Shown here in pieces: positions 1 through 35,881 of a stretch of 64,000 nt of DNA. Position 1 is the stretch's first letter. Each line of letters opens with the position of its first letter. Below the pieces are notes generated by a model. It searched no databases. It was given only the letters and a program-made list of their open reading frames with translations, and was not told where the DNA came from. A program made the translations under genes and the position numbers. Source of the DNA: Escherichia coli (GTDB taxonomy: Bacteria; Pseudomonadota; Gammaproteobacteria; Enterobacterales; Enterobacteriaceae); NCBI RefSeq assembly GCF_050920415.1, contig NZ_CP169309.1, one strand, 5' to 3'.

Positions 1-2
1 CC

Positions 3-383
3 CGTTTTCTCGACAGTAAAAAATTCCTTTCATTAATGATGTATATGTTACGTAATTGTGTAAGTGACAGCGTTTATCAAATTATTGAAAGCGATATCCA
101 CAAAGACTGGAATCTTAGTATGGTAGCCAGTTGTTTATGTCTTAGCCCAAGTCTGTTAAAGAAAAAGCTGAAAAGCGAAAACACCAGTTATAGCCAAATA
201 ATCACCACCTGCCGCATGCGTTATGCCGTCAATGAATTAATGATGGACGGTAAAAATATCTCTCAGGTCTCACAATCGTGTGGCTACAACAGTACGTCGT
301 ACTTTATTTCTGTCTTTAAAGACTTCTACGGTATGACGCCTCTGCATTATGTTAGTCAGCACAGAGAACGCACTGTCGCCTGA
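3..383 (+). CDS. adiY: AraC-family regulator AdiY, C-terminal part (5' end lies outside the window)
   Basis: Frame is open from the window edge; translation matches the AdiY C-terminal AraC-type HTH region as recalled; sits immediately upstream of adiC as in E. coli. Confidence 0.8.
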   Translation, partial: RFLDSKKFLSLMMYMLRNCVSDSVYQIIESDIHKDWNLSMVASCLCLSPSLLKKKLKSENTSYSQIITTCRMRYAVNELMMDGKNISQVSQSCGYNSTSYFISVFKDFYGMTPLHYVSQHRERTVA

Positions 384-519
384 TTTTTAACCTTAACGAA
401 GAGCTATATTAATAACGGCATCAGCGATAACCCGGTCGATAATAATTCAACTATCGAATGCAGGCGTATGATATGACGTAATTTATTGTCACGAAGCTCG
501 CCTTCGCAGGAGTTTAATT

Positions 520-1857
520 ATGTCTTCGGATGCTGATGCTCACAAAGTGGGCTTAATCCCCGTCACCCTGATGGTGTCGGGGAATATTATGGGGTCAGGT
601 GTTTTTCTGTTACCTGCAAACCTGGCCTCCACTGGCGGGATTGCCATTTATGGATGGTTGGTGACGATTATCGGTGCGCTGGGGCTCTCGATGGTATACG
701 CCAAAATGTCGTTCCTCGACCCAAGTCCTGGTGGTTCTTACGCTTACGCCCGCCGCTGCTTTGGCCCGTTTCTCGGTTATCAAACCAACGTCCTCTACTG
801 GCTGGCCTGCTGGATCGGCAATATCGCCATGGTGGTCATTGGCGTTGGATATTTAAGTTACTTCTTCCCGATTCTGAAAGATCCACTGGTATTAACCATC
901 ACCTGCGTCGTGGTGCTGTGGATCTTCGTCCTGCTGAACATTGTCGGTCCGAAAATGATCACCCGCGTGCAGGCCGTTGCCACCGTGCTGGCGCTGATCC
1001 CCATCGTCGGGATTGCCGTATTTGGCTGGTTCTGGTTCCGTGGTGAAACCTATATGGCGGCATGGAACGTCAGCGGCCTGGGCACCTTCGGCGCGATTCA
1101 AAGTACCCTTAACGTTACGCTGTGGTCGTTCATCGGTGTGGAAAGTGCCTCCGTTGCCGCAGGTGTGGTGAAAAACCCGAAACGCAACGTCCCTATCGCC
1201 ACCATTGGTGGGGTATTGATTGCCGCCGTTTGCTATGTGCTCTCCACCACCGCGATTATGGGGATGATCCCTAATGCCGCACTGCGCGTTTCTGCCTCGC
1301 CATTCGGTGATGCCGCACGGATGGCGTTGGGTGACACCGCCGGGGCCATTGTTTCCTTCTGCGCAGCTGCGGGTTGCTTAGGTTCACTGGGCGGCTGGAC
1401 GTTGCTGGCGGGTCAAACGGCGAAAGCCGCTGCCGATGACGGACTGTTCCCACCGATTTTTGCCCGTGTAAATAAAGCGGGTACGCCAGTGGCAGGGCTG
1501 ATTATCGTCGGTATTTTGATGACCATCTTCCAGCTCAGTAGCATTTCGCCAAACGCGACTAAAGAGTTCGGTCTGGTTTCTTCCGTGTCGGTCATCTTTA
1601 CACTGGTGCCATATCTTTACACCTGTGCGGCGTTACTGCTGCTCGGCCACGGCCACTTTGGTAAAGCACGCCCTGCATATCTGGCTGTTACTACCATTGC
1701 CTTCCTCTACTGCATCTGGGCCGTAGTAGGGTCCGGCGCGAAAGAGGTTATGTGGTCATTTGTCACCCTGATGGTCATCACCGCCATGTATGCGCTGAAT
1801 TACAACCGGCTGCATAAAAACCCGTATCCCTTAGATGCACCAATAAGCAAAGATTAA
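520..1857 (+). CDS. adiC: Arginine:agmatine antiporter (APC family)
   Basis: 445-aa polytopic membrane protein; N-terminus [27 protein letters not shown] recognised as AdiC; synteny with adiY. Confidence 0.93.
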
Positions 1858-1883
1858 TTCCCCTTAGTCAAGCAAACATAAAA

Positions 1884-1920
1884 GCCAACCTTAAGAACTT
1901 AAGGTTGGCTTAATTTTGCT
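1884..1920 (+). terminator. Intrinsic terminator downstream of adiC
   Basis: Perfect inverted repeat gccaaccttaag / cttaaggttggc followed by a T-rich tract (ttaattttgcttt), about 30 nt after the adiC stop. Confidence 0.5.
1898..1914 (+). promoter_or_regulatory. Candidate BasR (PmrA) box upstream of eptA
   Basis: CTTAAG-GTTGG-CTTAAT direct repeat (hexamer, 5 bp, hexamer) about 50 bp upstream of the eptA start; resembles the PmrA/BasR consensus YTTAAK-N5-YTTAAK. Confidence 0.5.
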
Positions 1921-1960
1921 TTGCGAGCATATGCGCACTTTGTTCGATGGAAACACCGTG

Positions 1961-3604
1961 ATGTTGAAGCGCCTACTAAAAAGACCCTCTTTGAATTTAC
2001 TCGCCTGGCTATTGCTGGCCGCTTTTTATATCGCTATCTGCCTGAATATTGCCTTTTTTAAACAGGTATTGCAGGCGTTGCCGCTGGACTCGCTGCATAA
2101 CGTACTTGTTTTCTTGTCGATGCCGGTCGTCGCTTTCAGCGTGATTAATATTGTCCTGACACTAAGCTCTTTCTTATGGCTTAATCGACCGCTGGCCTGC
2201 CTGTTTATTCTGGTTGGCGCGGCTGCACAATATTTCATAATGACTTACGGCATCGTCATCGACCGCTCGATGATTGCCAATATTATTGATACCACCCCAG
2301 CAGAAAGTTATGCGCTGATGACACCGCAAATGTTATTAACGCTGGGACTCAGCGGCGTACTTGCTGCGCTAATTGCCTGCTGGATTAAAATCAAACCTGC
2401 CACCTCGCATCTGCGCAGTGTTCTTTTCCGTGGTGCCAATATTCTGGTTTCTGTACTGCTGATTTTGCTGGTCGCCGCACTGTTTTATAAAGACTACGCC
2501 TCGTTGTTCCGCAACAACAAAGAGCTGGTGAAGTCCTTAAGCCCCTCTAACAGCATTGTTGCCAGCTGGTCATGGTACTCCCATCAGCGACTAGCAAATC
2601 TGCCACTGGTGCGAATTGGTGAAGACGCGCACCGCAACCCGTTAATGCAGAACGAGAAACGTAAAAATTTGACCATCCTGATTGTCGGCGAAACCTCGCG
2701 GGCGGAGAACTTCTCCCTCAACGGCTACCCGCGTGAAACGAACCCGCGGCTGGCGAAAGATAACGTGGTCTATTTCCCCAATACTGCGTCTTGCGGCACG
2801 GCAACGGCAGTTTCAGTACCGTGCATGTTCTCGGATATGCCGCGTGAGCATTACAAAGAAGAACTGGCACAGCACCAGGAAGGCGTGCTGGATATCATTC
2901 AGCGAGCGGGCATCAACGTGCTGTGGAATGACAACGATGGTGGCTGCAAAGGTGCCTGCGATCGCGTGCCTCACCAGAACGTCACTGCGCTGAACCTGCC
3001 TGGTCAGTGTATCAACGGCGAATGTTATGACGAAGTGCTTTTCCACGGGCTGGAAGAGTACATCACTAACCTGCAAGGTGATGGCGTAATTGTCTTACAC
3101 ACCATCGGCAGTCACGGCCCGACCTATTACAATCGCTATCCGCCACAGTTCAGGAAATTTACCCCTACCTGCGACACCAACGAGATCCAGACCTGTACCC
3201 AAGAGCAACTGGTAAACACTTACGACAATACGCTGGTCTACGTCGACTATATTGTTGATAAAGCAATTAATCTACTGAAAGAACATCAGGATAAATTTAC
3301 CACCAGCCTGGTTTATCTTTCTGACCACGGTGAATCGTTAGGTGAAAATGGCATCTATCTGCACGGTTTGCCTTATGCCATCGCCCCGGATAGCCAAAAA
3401 CAGGTGCCGATGCTGCTGTGGCTGTCTGAGGATTATCAAAAACGGTATCAGGTTGACCAAAGTTGCCTACAGAAACAGGCGCAAACGCAACACTATTCAC
3501 AAGACAATTTATTCTCCACGCTATTGGGATTAACTGGCGTTGAGACGAAGTATTACCAGGCTGCGGATGATATTCTGCAAACTTGCAGGAGAGTGAGTGA
3601 ATGA
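1961..3604 (+). CDS. eptA: Lipid A phosphoethanolamine transferase
   Basis: Track ORF 1916..3604; start placed at the internal ATG giving [14 protein letters not shown] (547 aa), matching EptA/PmrC as recalled; stop overlaps the basR start (ATGA). Confidence 0.88.
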
Positions 3605-4269
3605 AAATTCTGATTGTTGAAGACGATACGCTGTTATTGCAGGGATTGATTCTGGCGGCGCAAACCGAAGGCTACGCGTGCGATGGCGTGACAACCGCGC
3701 GGATGGCGGAACAAAGCCTTGAGGCAGGTCATTACAGCCTGGTGGTACTGGATTTAGGGTTACCCGACGAAGATGGGCTGCATTTTCTCGCCCGAATCCG
3801 GCAGAAAAAATACACCCTGCCGGTACTGATCCTCACCGCTCGCGATACGCTGACTGACAAAATCGCCGGACTGGATGTCGGGGCTGACGATTATCTGGTG
3901 AAGCCTTTTGCGCTGGAAGAGTTACACGCCCGTATCCGCGCCCTGCTACGACGCCATAATAATCAGGGCGAAAGTGAGTTGATTGTTGGCAATCTGACGC
4001 TGAATATGGGTCGCCGTCAGGTATGGATGGACGGTGAAGAGTTGATTCTGACGCCCAAAGAATATGCTCTGCTATCACGGTTAATGCTTAAAGCAGGTAG
4101 TCCGGTGCATCGGGAAATTCTCTACAACGACATCTATAACTGGGACAATGAACCCTCGACCAACACCCTGGAAGTGCATATCCACAATCTGCGCGACAAA
4201 GTGGGCAAAGCCCGTATCCGCACCGTGCGCGGCTTTGGCTATATGCTGGTCGCGAATGAGGAAAACTAA
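3601..4269 (+). CDS. basR: Two-component response regulator BasR (PmrA), OmpR family
   Basis: 222 aa; N-terminal receiver domain ([29 protein letters not shown]) and C-terminal winged helix; operon with eptA and basS. Confidence 0.93.
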
Positions 4270-31105: not shown

Positions 31106-33253
31106 ATGAAAAAAGTCGTCACGGTTTGCCCCTATTGCGCATCAGGTTGCAAAATCAACCTGGTCGTCGATAACGGCAAAATCGTCCGGGCGGAGGCAGC
31201 GCAGGGGAAAACCAACCAGGGTACCCTGTGTCTGAAGGGTTATTATGGCTGGGACTTCATTAACGATACCCAGATCCTGACCCCGCGCCTGAAAACCCCC
31301 ATGATCCGTCGCCAGCGTGGCGGCAAACTCGAACCTGTTTCCTGGGATGAGGCACTGAATTACGTTGCCGAGCGCCTGAGCGCCATCAAAGAGAAGTACG
31401 GTCCGGATGCCATCCAGACGACCGGCTCCTCGCGTGGTACGGGTAACGAAACCAACTATGTAATGCAAAAATTTGCGCGCGCCGTTATTGGTACCAATAA
31501 CGTTGACTGCTGCGCTCGTGTCTGACACGGCCCATCGGTTGCAGGTCTGCACCAATCGGTCGGTAATGGCGCAATGAGCAATGCTATTAACGAAATTGAT
31601 AATACCGATTTAGTGTTCGTTTTCGGGTACAACCCGGCGGATTCCCACCCTATCGTGGCGAATCACGTAATTAACGCTAAACGTAACGGGGCGAAAATTA
31701 TCGTCTGCGATCCGCGCAAAATTGAAACCGCGCGCATTGCTGACATGCACATTGCACTGAAAAACGGCTCGAATATCGCGCTGTTGAATGCGATGGGCCA
31801 TGTCATTATTGAAGAAAATCTGTACGACAAAGCGTTCGTCGCTTCCCGTACAGAAGGCTTTGAAGAGTATCGTAAAATCGTTGAAGGCTACACGCCGGAG
31901 TCGGTTGAAGATATCACCGGCGTTAGCGCCAGTGAGATTCGTCAGGCAGCGCGGATGTATGCCCAGGCGGAAAGCGCAGCCATTCTGTGGGGCATGGGTG
32001 TTACCCAGTTCTATCAGGGCGTGGAAACCGTACGTTCTCTGACCAGCCTCGCGATGCTGACCGGTAACCTCGGTAAGCCGCATGCGGGGGTAAACCCAGT
32101 TCGTGGTCAAAACAACGTGCAGGGGGCCTGCGATATGGGCGCGCTGCCAGATACTTACCCTGGCTACCAGTACGTGAAAGATCCGGCTAACCGCGAGAAA
32201 TTCGCCAAAGCCTGGGGCGTAGAGAGCCTGCCTGCACATACCGGTTATCGCATCAGCGAGCTACCGCATCGCGCAGCGCATGGCGAAGTGCGCGCCGCGT
32301 ACATTATGGGCGAGGATCCGCTGCAAACGGATGCGGAACTGTCGGCAGTACGTAAAGCTTTTGAAGATCTGGAACTGGTCATCGTTCAGGACATCTTTAT
32401 GACCAAAACCGCGTCGGCGGCGGATGTCATTTTACCGTCAACGTCGTGGGGCGAGCATGAAGGCGTGTTTACTGCGGCTGACCGTGGCTTCCAGCGTTTC
32501 TTCAAAGCAGTTGAACCGAAATGGGATCTGAAAACGGACTGGCAGATTATCAGTGAAATCGCCACCCGTATGGGTTATCCGATGCACTACAACAACACCC
32601 AGGAGATCTGGGATGAGTTGCGTCATCTGTGCCCGGATTTCTACGGTGCGACTTACGAGAAAATGGGCGAACTGGGCTTCATTCAGTGGCCTTGCCGCGA
32701 TACTTCAGATGCCGATCAGGGGACTTCTTATCTGTTTAAAGAGAAGTTTGATACTCCGAACGGTCTGGCGCAGTTCTTCACCTGCGACTGGGTAGCGCCA
32801 ATCGACAAACTCACCGACGAGTATCCGATGGTACTGTCAACGGTGCGTGAAGTCGGTCACTACTCTTGCCGTTCGATGACCGGTAACTGTGCGGCACTGG
32901 CGGCGCTGGCTGATGAACCAGGCTACGCACAAATCAATACCGAAGACGCCAAACGTCTGGGTATTGAAGATGAGGCATTGGTTTGGGTGCACTCGCGTAA
33001 AGGCAAAATTATCACCCGTGCGCAGGTCAGCGATCGTCCGAACAAAGGGGCGATTTACATGACCTACCAGTGGTGGATTGGTGCCTGTAACGAGCTGGTT
33101 ACCGAAAACTTAAGCCCGATTACGAAAACGCCGGAATACAAATACTGCGCCGTGCGCGTCGAGCCGATCGCCGATCAGCGCGCCGCCGAGCAGTACGTGA
33201 TTGACGAGTACAACAAGTTGAAAACTCGCCTGCGCGAAGCGGCACTGGCGTAA
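31106..33253 (+). CDS. fdhF: Formate dehydrogenase H (selenocysteine-containing molybdoenzyme); in-frame TGA at 31523..31525 decoded as Sec
   Basis: Track ORFs 31106..31525 and 31574..33253 are in the same frame, separated only by one TGA (codon 140); N-terminal Cys cluster CPYCASGCKINLVV; 715 aa total. Confidence 0.93.
31523..31570 (+). other. SECIS stem-loop directing Sec insertion at the fdhF UGA
   Basis: tgacacggcccatcggttgcaggtctgcaccaatcggtcggtaatggc immediately 3' of the UGA, matching the fdhF SECIS as recalled. Confidence 0.85.
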
Positions 33254-33265
33254 TACAGTCCTTTC

Positions 33266-33296
33266 TACAGCCTCCTGTCGGAGGCTGTTTTTTTAT
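33266..33296 (+). terminator. Intrinsic terminator after fdhF
   Basis: cagcctcc-tgtc-ggaggctg hairpin followed by a run of 8 T. Confidence 0.8.
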
Positions 33297-33346
33297 CCAT
33301 TCGAACTCTTTATACTGGTCACTCCCTACCCAATCGTATTATCAAA

Positions 33347-34036
33347 ATGAAAAAAATTATCGCATTGATGTTGTTTTTGACATTCTTTGCCCATGCGAAC
33401 GGCTCCGAGCCTGGCAGTCAGTATCTCAAGGCTGCAGAGGCTGGAGACCGACGCGCACAATATTTTCTTGCCGACAGCTGGTTTAGCTCCGGCGATTTGA
33501 GCAAAGCCGAATATTGGGCACAGAAAGCCGCCGACAGCGGTGATGCTGATGCCTGCGCGCTGTTAGCGCAGATCAAAATCACCAATCCGGTCAGTCTGGA
33601 CTATCCACAAGCAAAAGTTCTTGCAGAGAAAGCGGCGCAAGCGGGCAGTAAAGAAGGTGAAGTAACGCTGGCGCATATTCTGGTAAATACGCAAGCGGGT
33701 AAACCGGATTATCCAAAGGCGATTTCGCTGTTAGAAAACGCCTCTGAAGATCTGGAGAACGACTCCGCCGTCGATGCTCAGATGCTGCTTGGTTTGATTT
33801 ACGCTAACGGCGTGGGCATTAAGGCCGACGATGAGAAGGCAACCTGGTATTTCAAACGCAGCTCTGCGATTTCACGAACCGGTTATTCCGAGTACTGGGC
33901 GGGAATGATGTTCTTAAATGGTGAAGAAGGTTTTATCGAGAAGAACAAACAGAAGGCGCTGCACTGGCTGAACCTGAGCTGTATGGAAGGGTTTGATACC
34001 GGGTGTGAAGAGTTTGAAAAATTAACTAACGGTTAA
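33347..34036 (+). CDS. yjcO: Sel1-repeat (TPR-like) periplasmic protein
   Basis: 229 aa; signal peptide MKKIIALMLFLTFFAHA; repeated A-x-YWAQKAADSGD / LAQI / KAAQAGS motifs typical of Sel1 repeats. Confidence 0.82.
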   Translation: MKKIIALMLFLTFFAHANGSEPGSQYLKAAEAGDRRAQYFLADSWFSSGDLSKAEYWAQKAADSGDADACALLAQIKITNPVSLDYPQAKVLAEKAAQAGSKEGEVTLAHILVNTQAGKPDYPKAISLLENASEDLENDSAVDAQMLLGLIYANGVGIKADDEKATWYFKRSSAISRTGYSEYWAGMMFLNGEEGFIEKNKQKALHWLNLSCMEGFDTGCEEFEKLTNG

Positions 34037-34037
34037 T

Positions 34038-34222
34038 GTAGGCCTGATAAGGCGCGCCAAGCGTCGCATCAGGCATTGATGTCGGATGCGGCGTAAACGC
34101 CTTATCCGACCTACAAAATCACCCTAAATCAAGCTATTGCGCAGTCTGGCGTAGGCCTGATAAGACGCGGCAAGCGTCGCATCAGGCATCCACACATTGC
34201 CGGGTGTATGTCCCCGGCAATC
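34038..34222. repeat. REP/BIME cluster
   Basis: Several gcctgataaggcgc...gcgtcgcatcaggc and gtcggatgcggcgtaaacgccttatccgacctac units between yjcO and gltP. Confidence 0.75.
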
Positions 34223-34227
34223 CTCAA

Positions 34228-35541
34228 TTATTGATCCGCAGTTTTATCAAATTTGCCCAGCACTTCGCGCTCATAAGCCAGCGCTTTCTTACGGTCAAAT
34301 TTGTGTTCCCACTTGGCAATCACCAGCACCGCCAGCGCATTACCCACCACGTTCAGCGCAGTACGCGCCATGTCGAGGATACGGTCAACACCGGCAATAA
34401 ACGCCAGACCTTCCAGCGGGATCCCTACGCTGCCCAGCGTTGCCAGCAACACCACAAACGACACGCCCGGCACGCCAGCAATCCCTTTCGAGGTCACCAT
34501 CAGCGTCAGCACCAGAATGATTTCCTGCCAGATGGACAGGTCAATGCCATACAACTGCGCGATGAAAATAGCGGCAATACTTTGATACAGCGTCGAACCA
34601 TCAAGGTTAAAAGAGTAACCGGTCGGCACCACGAAACTGGTGATCGACGCCGGTGCACCATAGGCTTCCATCTTCTCAATAATTCGCGGCAGCACGCTTT
34701 CAGAGCTGGCAGTGGAGTACGCCAGAATCAGCTCATCTTTCAGAATACGAATCAGGATCCAGACGCTTAACCCGCACAGGCGCGCCACAATTCCCAGCAC
34801 TACCAGCGCGAAAAACAGAATGGCGAAATGCACCAGCAGCACCAGTTTCGCCAGTGGCCACAGAGACGAGAAACCAAAGTTAGCCACCGTCACCGCAATC
34901 AGCGCAAACACACCCACTGGCGCATAACGCATCACCATGTGAGTCACTTTAAACATGGTTTCAGAGATGGAGCGGAACACGGTCACCAGCGGTTCACGAT
35001 GCGTTGCGGGCAGGGAGGAAAGCCCCAGACCAAACAGTACCGAGAAGAAGATGATCGGTAACATTTCGCCTTTCGCCATCGACGCCACAATATTCGTCGG
35101 CACCAGAGACAAAATCGTGCCCATAATACCGTGGGAACTGCTCTGTACCGCTTCTGTAGTGCTCTGATATTTCGAGATATCGACGGTTGCCAGCTGCGAC
35201 ATATCCACCCCGGCACCGGGCTGGAAGACGTTCGCCAGGGTGATCCCCAGAATGATGGCGACAGTGGTGATCACCTCGAAATAGATAATGGTTTTCGCGC
35301 CAATACGCCCGAGCTGTTTGGCATCACCAACACCCGCAATACCCACCACCAGCGTGGAGATCACAATCGGCACAACAATCATTTTGATCAGATGGATGAA
35401 GATATCACCCGCCGGAGAGAGCAAATTGACGACCAGCCATTCGCGACTGTCGCTATGGTAGTGCAGGTAGCTTCCCAGGAGAATGCCCAGCACCATAGCA
35501 AACAGAATCTGCCAGGCCAGGCTGAATTTTATATTTTTCAT
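34228..35541 (-). CDS. gltP: Proton/glutamate-aspartate symporter
   Basis: 437 aa from MKNIKFSLAWQILFAMVLGILLG; the track ORF extends 41 codons upstream and was trimmed. Start coordinate taken from the track frame. Confidence 0.9.
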   Translation of the reverse strand: MKNIKFSLAWQILFAMVLGILLGSYLHYHSDSREWLVVNLLSPAGDIFIHLIKMIVVPIVISTLVVGIAGVGDAKQLGRIGAKTIIYFEVITTVAIILGITLANVFQPGAGVDMSQLATVDISKYQSTTEAVQSSSHGIMGTILSLVPTNIVASMAKGEMLPIIFFSVLFGLGLSSLPATHREPLVTVFRSISETMFKVTHMVMRYAPVGVFALIAVTVANFGFSSLWPLAKLVLLVHFAILFFALVVLGIVARLCGLSVWILIRILKDELILAYSTASSESVLPRIIEKMEAYGAPASITSFVVPTGYSFNLDGSTLYQSIAAIFIAQLYGIDLSIWQEIILVLTLMVTSKGIAGVPGVSFVVLLATLGSVGIPLEGLAFIAGVDRILDMARTALNVVGNALAVLVIAKWEHKFDRKKALAYEREVLGKFDKTADQ

Positions 35542-35881
35542 CAGAATAACTTCCTCAATGGAGCGCCGTTCCCGTTCAGAAACGCGAGAACGTGACATAC
35601 TGCCAGGGCATGAATTGTGTTGCGTTGGTTTGTAGATTTTTTTAACGCTTATAATCAGTATCATTTGCGCGGTATGTTGCGCAACCCTTTAACAACAGAG
35701 CTTTTCGCTGCATTAATGCATAATAACGCGAGTTTATGGTAGGATTAATGAATAACCATTTGTTATGGAAAGATTTTTATTTGTTTAATCTGCAATAATA
35801 CTGATTGGTGATTATTTTTGGTATATGTTCATTCGATTGTTTTTTATGCAGCTCAATAACATAATCTTCATCACCAAATGA

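What the first reader, a model, noticed from the sequence alone, without database searches (positions are those of the whole stretch)
33347..34036. YjcO: periplasmic Sel1-repeat protein
Signal peptide plus at least four Sel1-like repeats. Sel1 proteins are often adaptor or interaction modules, and this one is uncharacterised.
Basis: seen in the sequence. Interest (0 to 1): 0.2.

Follow-up and report, generated by a model that had tools for sequence, protein, structure and literature searches.

The report
YjcO, a periplasmic Sel1-repeat protein
This is the known E. coli core gene yjcO, which encodes a small exported protein built from five helical Sel1-type repeats; a close relative already has a crystal structure but no function is assigned, so the finding is correct but ordinary.

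Summary

- **Domain:** Pfam Sel1 scores 72.8 bits against a cut-off of 30.7.
- **Export:** the N-terminus is a classical Sec signal peptide (MKK, hydrophobic core, AHA|NG). It has no lipobox and no twin arginine.
- **Repeats:** only three repeats are detectable by HMM. A confident AF2 model (pLDDT 90.7) shows five helix pairs plus capping helices. It superposes on PDB 3RJV, the unpublished Klebsiella ortholog KPN_04481 (70% identity, TM 0.95, rmsd 1.6 Å).
- **New detail:**
  - An invariant C212-x7-C220 pair.
  - Repeats 4-5 are the most conserved part.
  - A TATACT -10 element is conserved about 30 nt before the ATG in 65 of 65 loci outside Buttiauxella.
  - The family was found only in Enterobacteriaceae, almost always as fdhF > yjcO > < gltP. 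In Buttiauxella it lies after tcyP.
  - Selection is purifying, but the protein has diverged 2 to 7 times more than its neighbours.
- **Function:** still unknown in the literature up to 2026.

The best reading is a soluble periplasmic protein-binding scaffold with an unknown partner. It is already known and of low interest.

The parts
33267..33295 (+). Intrinsic terminator of fdhF (9-bp GC-rich stem, T7 tail). It separates yjcO from the upstream gene.
   Evidence: Terminator scan; sequence.
33311..33316 (+). Probable -10 promoter hexamer TATACT of yjcO, 30 nt before the ATG. There is no good -35 and no visible Shine-Dalgarno.
   Evidence: An exact TATACT ends 29-33 nt upstream of the start in 65 of 65 non-Buttiauxella loci from 15 genera, while the flanking bases diverge. 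An RpoD-holoenzyme binding site between fdhF and yjcO is listed in PMC3946193. Promoter function is inferred, not shown.
33347..33397 (+). Sec signal peptide, residues 1-17 (MKKIIALMLFLTFFAHA). Predicted signal peptidase I cleavage after Ala17.
   Evidence: A17 invariant; no lipobox Cys. The third residue of the 3RJV chain aligns with query residue 20. AF2 pLDDT is below 50 for residues 11-18.
33398..34033 (+). Mature YjcO, residues 18-229 (212 aa, about 23 kDa, pI about 4.6): an all-helical Sel1-like-repeat solenoid.
33449..33541 (+). Repeat 1 (res 35-65); detectable by the Sel1 HMM (22.8 bits).
33542..33646 (+). Repeat 2 (res 66-100); a helix pair by structure only, with no HMM hit.
33647..33760 (+). 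Repeat 3 (res 101-138); a helix pair by structure only. Its helix A is removed by the 18-aa in-frame deletion seen in Shigella variants.
33761..33880 (+). Repeat 4 (res 139-178); Sel1 HMM 30.0 bits; 18 of 40 positions invariant.
33881..33991 (+). Repeat 5 (res 179-215); Sel1 HMM 32.2 bits; 19 of 37 positions invariant. Contains the family motif GY[AS]EYWAGM.
33980..34006 (+). Invariant Cys212-x7-Cys220 pair (codons 33980-33982 and 34004-34006). It links the end of repeat-5 helix B to the start of the C-terminal cap helix and is a predicted disulfide.
   Evidence: Both Cys are invariant in 30 orthologs and kept in the 48%-identical P0127; the third Cys (C70) is variable. Helix limits. The disulfide itself is inferred.
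33992..34036 (+). C-terminal capping helix (res 216-229) and the stop codon.

Best explanation
yjcO is an independently transcribed core gene of Enterobacteriaceae.

**Proposed pathway**
- Its product is made as a 229-aa precursor and exported by the Sec pathway.
- Signal peptidase I cleaves it after Ala17.
- The mature 212-aa acidic protein folds in the periplasm into a compact solenoid of five Sel1-like helix pairs with N- and C-terminal capping helices.
- The C-terminal cap is probably stapled to repeat 5 by a DsbA-made Cys212-Cys220 disulfide.

**Proposed function**
- It has no catalytic motif.
- Like other Sel1-like-repeat proteins, it most likely works as a soluble periplasmic binding module.
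- It would hold, mask or bridge another envelope protein or peptide, mainly through the strongly conserved repeat 4, repeat 5 and C-cap surface. The partner is unknown.

**Shown here:** gene identity, fold, repeat anatomy, conservation pattern, synteny and purifying selection.

**Inferred:** export and cleavage site, the disulfide, promoter use, and the binding function.
For: - **Identity and ubiquity:** RefSeq annotation and 5410 of 5426 genomes.
- **Sel1 domain:** 72.8 bits against a cut-off of 30.7.
- **Ortholog crystal structure 3RJV:** E = 1.4e-95.
- **Model:** AF2 pLDDT 90.7, pTM 0.85, 13 helices. It superposes on 3RJV at TM 0.95 and 1.6 Å.
- **Structural neighbours:** every other confident match (E <= 0.001; most are Sel1-like or TPR repeat proteins) is an all-helical repeat scaffold and none matches through an enzyme domain. 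Examples are LpnE, LceB, c5321, SEL1L, HcpC, COA7 and AlgK, at TM about 0.5.
- **Signal peptide:** typical features with invariant Ala at -1.
- **Cysteines:** C212 and C220 invariant, C70 variable.
- **Conservation:** repeats 4-5 have the lowest column entropy, 0.47-0.60 against 0.84-1.04 for repeats 1-3.
- **Own transcription unit:** an fdhF terminator upstream, a TATACT conserved at a fixed distance in 65 of 65 loci and an RpoD site.
- **Expression:** the locus is transcribed and translated in LTEE strains.
- **Selection:** dN/dS 0.02-0.06.
Against: - No experiment in the searchable literature shows localisation, a disulfide, a partner or a phenotype.
- The C43(DE3) YjcO E222G change had no effect in the one test reported.
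- The gene lies in a 57.5-kb region whose deletion fixed in one LTEE line, with a second deletion at the same locus in another. It is therefore dispensable in glucose minimal medium.
- There is no neighbouring gene in the same operon to suggest a partner.
- The unusual closed packing of repeat 5 against the loops of repeats 2-3 may restrict the usual concave binding groove. The ligand could therefore be small rather than a protein.
Confidence: 0.6

Rival explanations
1. YjcO is a periplasmic inhibitor or immunity-type protein. It would bind and neutralise a harmful enzyme in the periplasm: either an incoming type VI secretion toxin or an endogenous cell-wall hydrolase.
For: Exported Sel1-repeat proteins do this elsewhere. 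Klebsiella Sel1E protects against the VgrG4 toxin, and it was modelled on the Sel1-type immunity protein PA5087. PA5086 and PA5087 appear among the Foldseek hits. YjcO has diverged 2-7 times more (dN) than its neighbours FdhF and GltP between genera: dN 0.24-0.27 against 0.03-0.05. Legionella EnhC inhibiting the Slt transglycosylase is a further precedent; this comes from my own knowledge and was not checked here.
Against: YjcO is a single-copy core gene at a fixed chromosomal site. No effector, vgrG or Rhs gene lies nearby in any of about 80 loci. dN/dS is low (0.02-0.1), so selection is not diversifying. Similarity to PA5086 and PA5087 is weak (E about 4e-3, TM 0.40), and no sequence-level hit was found.
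Confidence: 0.12
2. YjcO is an accessory periplasmic factor of SDF/DAACS-family amino-acid carriers (GltP, TcyP), modulating or protecting their periplasmic face.
For: In both independent genomic contexts the immediate neighbour is an SDF-family transporter gene. It is gltP in 15 genera, and the pairing is retained even where fdhF is lost (E. albertii L018, L091). It is tcyP in all Buttiauxella loci examined. With about five SDF genes per genome, chance adjacency after relocation is roughly 0.2%. That figure is my post-hoc estimate.
Against: yjcO and gltP are convergent and separated by REP elements. In Buttiauxella a strong terminator lies between tcyP and yjcO. A 48%-identical homolog sits next to LysR and metallo-beta-lactamase genes, with no SDF gene on its short contig. 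There are only two independent contexts. From general knowledge, these carriers work without periplasmic partners.
Confidence: 0.05
3. YjcO binds peptidoglycan fragments or beta-lactams, as proposed for Helicobacter cysteine-rich proteins (HcpA, HcpB).
For: It has the same fold class and is likewise an exported protein. Its C-x7-C pair resembles the cysteine spacing of Hcp proteins; that spacing is from my own knowledge of Luthy et al. 2002/2004 and was not tested here. HcpC and HcpB are Foldseek hits.
Against: The hits are weak: HcpC at E = 2.3e-6 by sequence and TM 0.48, HcpB at E = 3.4e-3. YjcO has one cysteine pair, not one per repeat. A PDB search with the C-terminal 50 residues did not retrieve any Hcp protein.
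Confidence: 0.05
4. YjcO works with formate dehydrogenase H (fdhF), its nearly universal upstream neighbour.
For: The order fdhF then yjcO holds in 15 genera.
Against: A terminator and a separate conserved promoter lie between the two genes. From general knowledge FdhF is cytoplasmic, whereas YjcO carries an export signal. yjcO is kept where fdhF is absent (E. albertii) and sits elsewhere in Buttiauxella. A hok/gef gene is inserted between the two in Enterobacter.
Confidence: 0.02

Closest known systems
KPN_04481 of Klebsiella pneumoniae (PDB 3RJV, JCSG, unpublished)
   Same: It is the ortholog: 70% identity over the whole mature protein and the same length. It shares the same C-terminal SC-x-EGFDTGC motif. 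The model superposes at TM 0.95 and 1.6 Å. Other Klebsiella species carry the gene between fdhF and gltP.
   Different: Nothing of substance differs. It also has no assigned function.
Sel1-like repeat (SLR) family, Pfam PF08238: HcpB/HcpC, c5321 (EsiB), LpnE, LceB, SEL1L, AlgK
   Same: It has helix-turn-helix repeats of about 36-40 residues with the Ala/Gly/Trp packing pattern. The family plays scaffold roles and includes many exported bacterial members.
   Different: YjcO is short, with five repeats, two of them too divergent for the HMM. Its solenoid is closed up, so other SLR structures superpose only at rmsd 7-8 Å and TM about 0.5. PMC3851747 notes an uncommon packing angle of the fifth repeat. 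It has a single terminal cysteine pair rather than one per repeat, and no lipid anchor (unlike AlgK).
Sel1-type T6SS immunity proteins (P. aeruginosa PA5086/PA5087; Klebsiella Sel1E)
   Same: They are small Sel1-repeat proteins that bind one protein partner. Of these, PA5086/PA5087 act in the periplasm (my own knowledge); localisation predictions for Sel1E were inconclusive.
   Different: YjcO has no linked effector gene. It is core and syntenic rather than variable, and the structural match is weak (TM 0.40).

Membership tests
Sel1-like repeat proteins (Pfam PF08238) | Whole-protein score above the Pfam gathering threshold | tested here: met
   72.8 bits against 30.7, E = 2.1e-20.
Sel1-like repeat proteins (Pfam PF08238) | Several tandem units of about 36-44 residues, each an antiparallel helix pair forming a solenoid | tested here: met
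   There are five helix pairs plus caps in the AF2 model at pLDDT 90.7. The fold is the same as crystal structure 3RJV. Three units score individually with the HMM and two do not.
[quoted passage not shown] | Near-full-length identity to annotated YjcO and the same chromosomal position (fdhF-yjcO-gltP) | tested here: met
   One genome matches at 100% nucleotide identity; 4071 of 5433 matching records fall in the 95-99% band, 1355 in 90-95% and 6 at >=99%. The features annotated under the match are yjcO, fdhF and gltP. The protein is 99% identical to P0003, which NCBI names YjcO.
Sec-exported soluble periplasmic proteins | N-terminal signal peptide with a signal peptidase I site, no lipobox, no twin-arginine motif, no further membrane span | tested here: met
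   MKK / 11-residue hydrophobic core / AHA|N, with A17 invariant. There is no Cys near the cleavage site and no hydrophobic stretch later in the protein. Actual export is not testable with these tools.
Helicobacter cysteine-rich proteins (Hcp) | A cysteine pair in every repeat forming inter-repeat disulfides | tested here: not met
   There is only one conserved pair (C212, C220); the third Cys (C70) is variable. PMC3851747 describes disulfides cross-linking the repeats in HcpB and HcpC.
AlgK (NCBIfam NF038194) / MotX (NF047621) | Score above the curated equivalog cut-off | tested here: not met
   AlgK scores 27.8 bits against a cut-off of 700. MotX scores 15.3 bits against 330.
T6SS Sel1-type immunity proteins | Gene adjacent to a cognate effector (vgrG, tle, pld) gene | tested here: not met
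   The neighbours are fdhF and gltP, or tcyP and cedA, in about 80 loci.

The most novel reading that the evidence does not exclude
YjcO could be a dedicated periplasmic partner of SDF/DAACS-family amino-acid carriers. It neighbours gltP in most genera and tcyP in Buttiauxella. That would be the first periplasmic accessory protein for a transporter class thought to act alone. A second, equally unexcluded reading is a conserved 'standing' immunity or inhibitor protein against a periplasm-acting toxin or lytic enzyme.
Probability: 0.06. Interest if true: 0.55.

Novelty: already known. Interest (0 to 1): 0.1.

Why it matters
It matters little beyond annotation. YjcO is one of the remaining function-unknown proteins of the E. 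coli envelope. It is conserved across Enterobacteriaceae, under purifying selection, and has a known three-dimensional structure, so it is a tractable target for partner-finding work. The details added here give concrete handles for such experiments: the invariant C-terminal cysteine pair, the conserved repeat 4-5 surface, the conserved -10 element, and the repeated adjacency to SDF-family carrier genes. None of them changes current understanding.

Tried and rejected
- **Literature.** I searched for yjcO, its locus tags, 3RJV, and yjcO together with RpoS. No functional study turned up.
  - Several mentions in laboratory-evolution papers (the ones I opened) refer to a stock polymorphism in the REP region between gltP and yjcO, not to the gene.
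  - The DrpB multicopy-suppressor screen lists yjcO only as one gene on a chimeric single-isolate insert.
  - The rcsB transcriptome shows a 1.28-fold change.
- **NCBIfam.** It gave only far sub-threshold hits (AlgK, MotX, MerG).
- **Operon link to fdhF.** Rejected because of the terminator, the separate promoter, the different cell compartments, and retention of yjcO where fdhF is lost.
- **Hcp-like cysteine motif.** A PDB search with the C-terminal 50 residues retrieved no Hcp protein.
- **Minus-strand features.** The minus-strand ORF 33418..33585 (55 aa) and the minus-strand promoter-like site at 33383..33356 were treated as chance. Promoter-like sites were no more frequent than in shuffled sequence: 2 found against 1.2 ± 1.2 expected.
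- **Sigma-S control.** I considered this because of the TATACT hexamer, but found no supporting data and make no claim.
- **Not possible here.** I could not inspect model or 3RJV coordinates. The disulfide distance and the mapping of conserved residues onto the surface therefore remain untested.

Full report
**What is at the coordinates**

Window 33347..34036 on the + strand is a single ORF of 229 codons plus stop. A megablast of the gene with its flanks against 5,426 complete E. coli genomes found it, at 80% coverage or more, in 5,410 of them. It lies between fdhF and gltP, with mdtNOP further upstream and nrfA-G further downstream.

**Domain content**

Pfam Sel1 (PF08238) matches with E = 2.1e-20 and 72.8 bits, against a gathering score of 30.7. 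Three stretches are significant on their own. I then scanned each repeat separately:

| Repeat | Residues | Sel1 HMM score |
|---|---|---|
| 1 | 35-65 | 22.8 bits |
| 2 | 66-100 | no hit |
| 3 | 101-138 | no hit |
| 4 | 139-178 | 30.0 bits |
| 5 | 179-215 | 32.2 bits |

NCBIfam has no specific model. AlgK, MotX and MerG hits are far below their cut-offs.

**Structure**

A sequence search of the PDB returned 3RJV, 'putative Sel1 repeat protein', at E = 1.4e-95 over residues 20-229. PMC3851747 identifies it as KPN_04481 of Klebsiella pneumoniae and as unpublished. It remarks that the fifth repeat has an uncommon packing angle that lets it touch the intra-repeat loops of repeats 2 and 3.

An AF2 model built from 30 orthologs has mean pLDDT 90.7 and pTM 0.85. 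Its helices are:

- a signal-peptide helix;
- an N-cap helix (24-31);
- five helix pairs (35-48/51-63, 67-79/86-98, 102-112/122-133, 140-154/162-176, 181-191/201-213);
- a C-cap helix (217-227).

Foldseek places 3RJV first (70% identity, target-normalised TM 0.95, rmsd 1.6 Å). Other Sel1 proteins follow only at TM about 0.5 and rmsd 7-8 Å. These include Oxalobacter proteins, LceB, LpnE, c5321, SEL1L, HcpC, COA7 and AlgK. The protein is therefore a five-repeat Sel1-type solenoid with an atypically closed shape.

**Export signal and cysteines**

The N-terminus is MKK, then an 11-residue hydrophobic core, then A-H-A before NGSEP. In 30 orthologs Ala17 is invariant, while the core changes in sequence but stays hydrophobic. 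The crystallised Klebsiella chain begins right after this point. There is no lipobox cysteine and no twin arginine. The simplest reading is Sec export, cleavage after Ala17 and a soluble periplasmic product. This is inference from sequence, since no localisation experiment was found.

Of the three cysteines, C212 and C220 are invariant and C70 is variable. The pair is also kept in a 48%-identical distant homolog. C212 ends helix B of repeat 5 and C220 begins the cap helix. A disulfide stapling the cap is therefore likely in the oxidising periplasm, but I could not measure it.

**Conservation and evolution**

Repeats 4 and 5 are the most conserved parts: 18 of 40 and 19 of 37 positions are invariant, with column entropy 0.60 and 0.47. 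Repeats 1-3 have entropy 0.84-1.04. Family signatures are AVDAQM, SRTGY[AS]EYWAGM and SC-x-EGFDTGC.

Pairwise dN/dS against other Escherichia species, Salmonella and Citrobacter is 0.02-0.06, so the gene is under clear purifying selection. Against Klebsiella or Enterobacter, dN reaches 0.24-0.27, while the flanking fdhF and gltP stay at 0.03-0.05. The corresponding protein identities are 60-68% against 92-96%. The gene is constrained but evolves several times faster than its neighbours.

**Distribution and context**

- The word-indexed search, the exhaustive representative search and the scan of one genome per species all found full-length relatives only in Enterobacteriaceae.
- The 16 genera are Escherichia, Salmonella, Citrobacter, Kluyvera, Klebsiella, Raoultella, Enterobacter, Lelliottia, Leclercia, Pluralibacter, Huaxiibacter, Trabulsiella, Pseudenterobacter, Shimwellia, Silvania and Buttiauxella.
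- At 50% clustering the family collapses to very few representatives. The other strong hits are giant multi-repeat proteins.
- In 15 genera the order is fdhF > yjcO > < gltP.
- E. albertii has lost fdhF but keeps yjcO, its upstream region and gltP.
- In all Buttiauxella loci examined, yjcO instead follows a 463-aa SDF-family carrier gene. That gene is 27% identical to GltP and is the tcyP ortholog (81.8% nucleotide identity to E. coli tcyP).
- Both independent contexts thus put yjcO beside an SDF-family carrier gene. This is curious, but three things weaken it. The arrangement with gltP is convergent with REP elements in between. A strong terminator lies between tcyP and yjcO. A distant homolog has LysR and metallo-beta-lactamase neighbours instead.

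**Transcription**

A clear intrinsic terminator follows fdhF at 33267-33295. An exact TATACT hexamer at 33311-33316 ends 30 nt before the ATG. The same hexamer at 29-33 nt is present in 65 of 65 non-Buttiauxella loci, although the surrounding bases differ. PMC3946193 lists an RpoD-holoenzyme site between fdhF and yjcO. yjcO is therefore its own transcription unit. There is no convincing -35 and no Shine-Dalgarno sequence. Ribosome profiling reanalysed in a 2026 preprint shows that a yjcO-lysU fusion is transcribed and translated.

**What is known of function**

Nothing direct is known.

- Papers from 2015, 2022 and 2026 describe the function as unassigned or unknown.
- The C43(DE3) E222G substitution had no effect on toxicity escape.
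- The region is deleted without harm, and in fact with benefit, in two LTEE lines.
- The laboratory-evolution mentions I opened refer to a REP-region stock polymorphism.

**Mechanism**

The protein has no catalytic signature, and its confident structural neighbours match through helical repeat scaffolds, not enzyme domains. I therefore take YjcO to be a soluble periplasmic binding module whose conserved repeat 4-5-cap region holds an unknown envelope partner (confidence about 0.6). The rivals are:

- an inhibitor or immunity-type role, with precedents in Sel1E and PA5087; the fixed core location, absence of an effector neighbour and low dN/dS argue against it;
- an accessory role for SDF carriers, resting on two contexts only;
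- an Hcp-like peptidoglycan or beta-lactam binding role, supported only by weak similarity and a single cysteine pair;
- a link to fdhF, which is largely excluded.

**Verdict**

The finding is real and correctly interpreted, and the gene is already known and annotated. It is one of many function-unknown envelope proteins. Nothing in the sequence, structure or context is surprising enough to raise its priority.

Noticed in passing
window 31106-33253 (+), TGA at 31523-31525, SECIS at 31518-31572: fdhF is read through an in-frame TGA (selenocysteine 140), which splits it into two mechanical ORFs. Rfam SECIS_2 matches right at the TGA codon and extends downstream of it, at 87.1 bits.
   Followed up: partly
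window 34037-34190: A REP/BIME cluster lies between yjcO and gltP. It has two direct REP copies (34038-34076 and 34151-34189, 95% identical) and an inverted arm (34098-34115). Rfam naRNA4 matches at 34041-34111 (-), 73.7 bits. This BIME was used as a TnpA_REP cleavage substrate (B319) in PMC3333891. It also carries a known MG1655 stock polymorphism (+CG), which accounts for several of the 'yjcO' mentions in evolution papers.
   Followed up: partly
window 33311-33316; loci L016-L095: An exact TATACT hexamer ends 29-33 nt before the yjcO start codon in 65 of 65 non-Buttiauxella loci from 15 genera, while flanking bases vary. It is absent in Buttiauxella. No -35 or Shine-Dalgarno is evident.
   Followed up: yes
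L004/L005 4476-6687; L048, L049, L052, L056, L059, L062, L071: In Buttiauxella, yjcO has moved to lie just downstream of tcyP (cystine carrier, SDF family). In other genera it lies beside gltP, another SDF-family carrier. A strong terminator separates tcyP from yjcO.
   Followed up: partly
L006/L007 5727-5879; L015 4677-4829: A 50-aa hok/gef-type toxin gene (PF01848) is inserted between fdhF and yjcO in Enterobacter hormaechei-type contigs and in one metagenome contig.
   Followed up: no
L018 (Escherichia albertii) 1-4000: E. albertii lacks fdhF upstream of yjcO. An ABC-transporter-like gene ends about 110 nt before yjcO instead, while the TATACT element and gltP are retained. A 351-aa E. coli protein with ABC ATPase and Sel1 domains (P0029) in the homolog list may be a fusion product, but I did not examine its locus.
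   Followed up: partly
proteins P0008, P0010 (Shigella), P0014, P0017, P0019, P0021, P0001: Sporadic in-frame deletions, and one duplication, of repeat pieces occur in YjcO. Shigella sonnei and S. flexneri lack 18 residues (about 98-115, helix A of repeat 3), with QAG at both ends of the deleted segment. P0001 duplicates the same segment. This suggests slippage within the repeat region and probable loss of function in Shigella.
   Followed up: partly
window 33200-34250: This strain's allele of the locus is uncommon. One genome matches at 100% (strain MFDS1022581), only 6 of 5433 matching records are at 99% identity or more, and most are at 95-99%.
   Followed up: no
window 34228-35664 (-): The mechanical gltP ORF is 478 aa from the first ATG. 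The annotated GltP is 437 aa starting at MKNIKF (35541), and the NCBIfam GltP model covers residues 1-437 of that form.
   Followed up: partly
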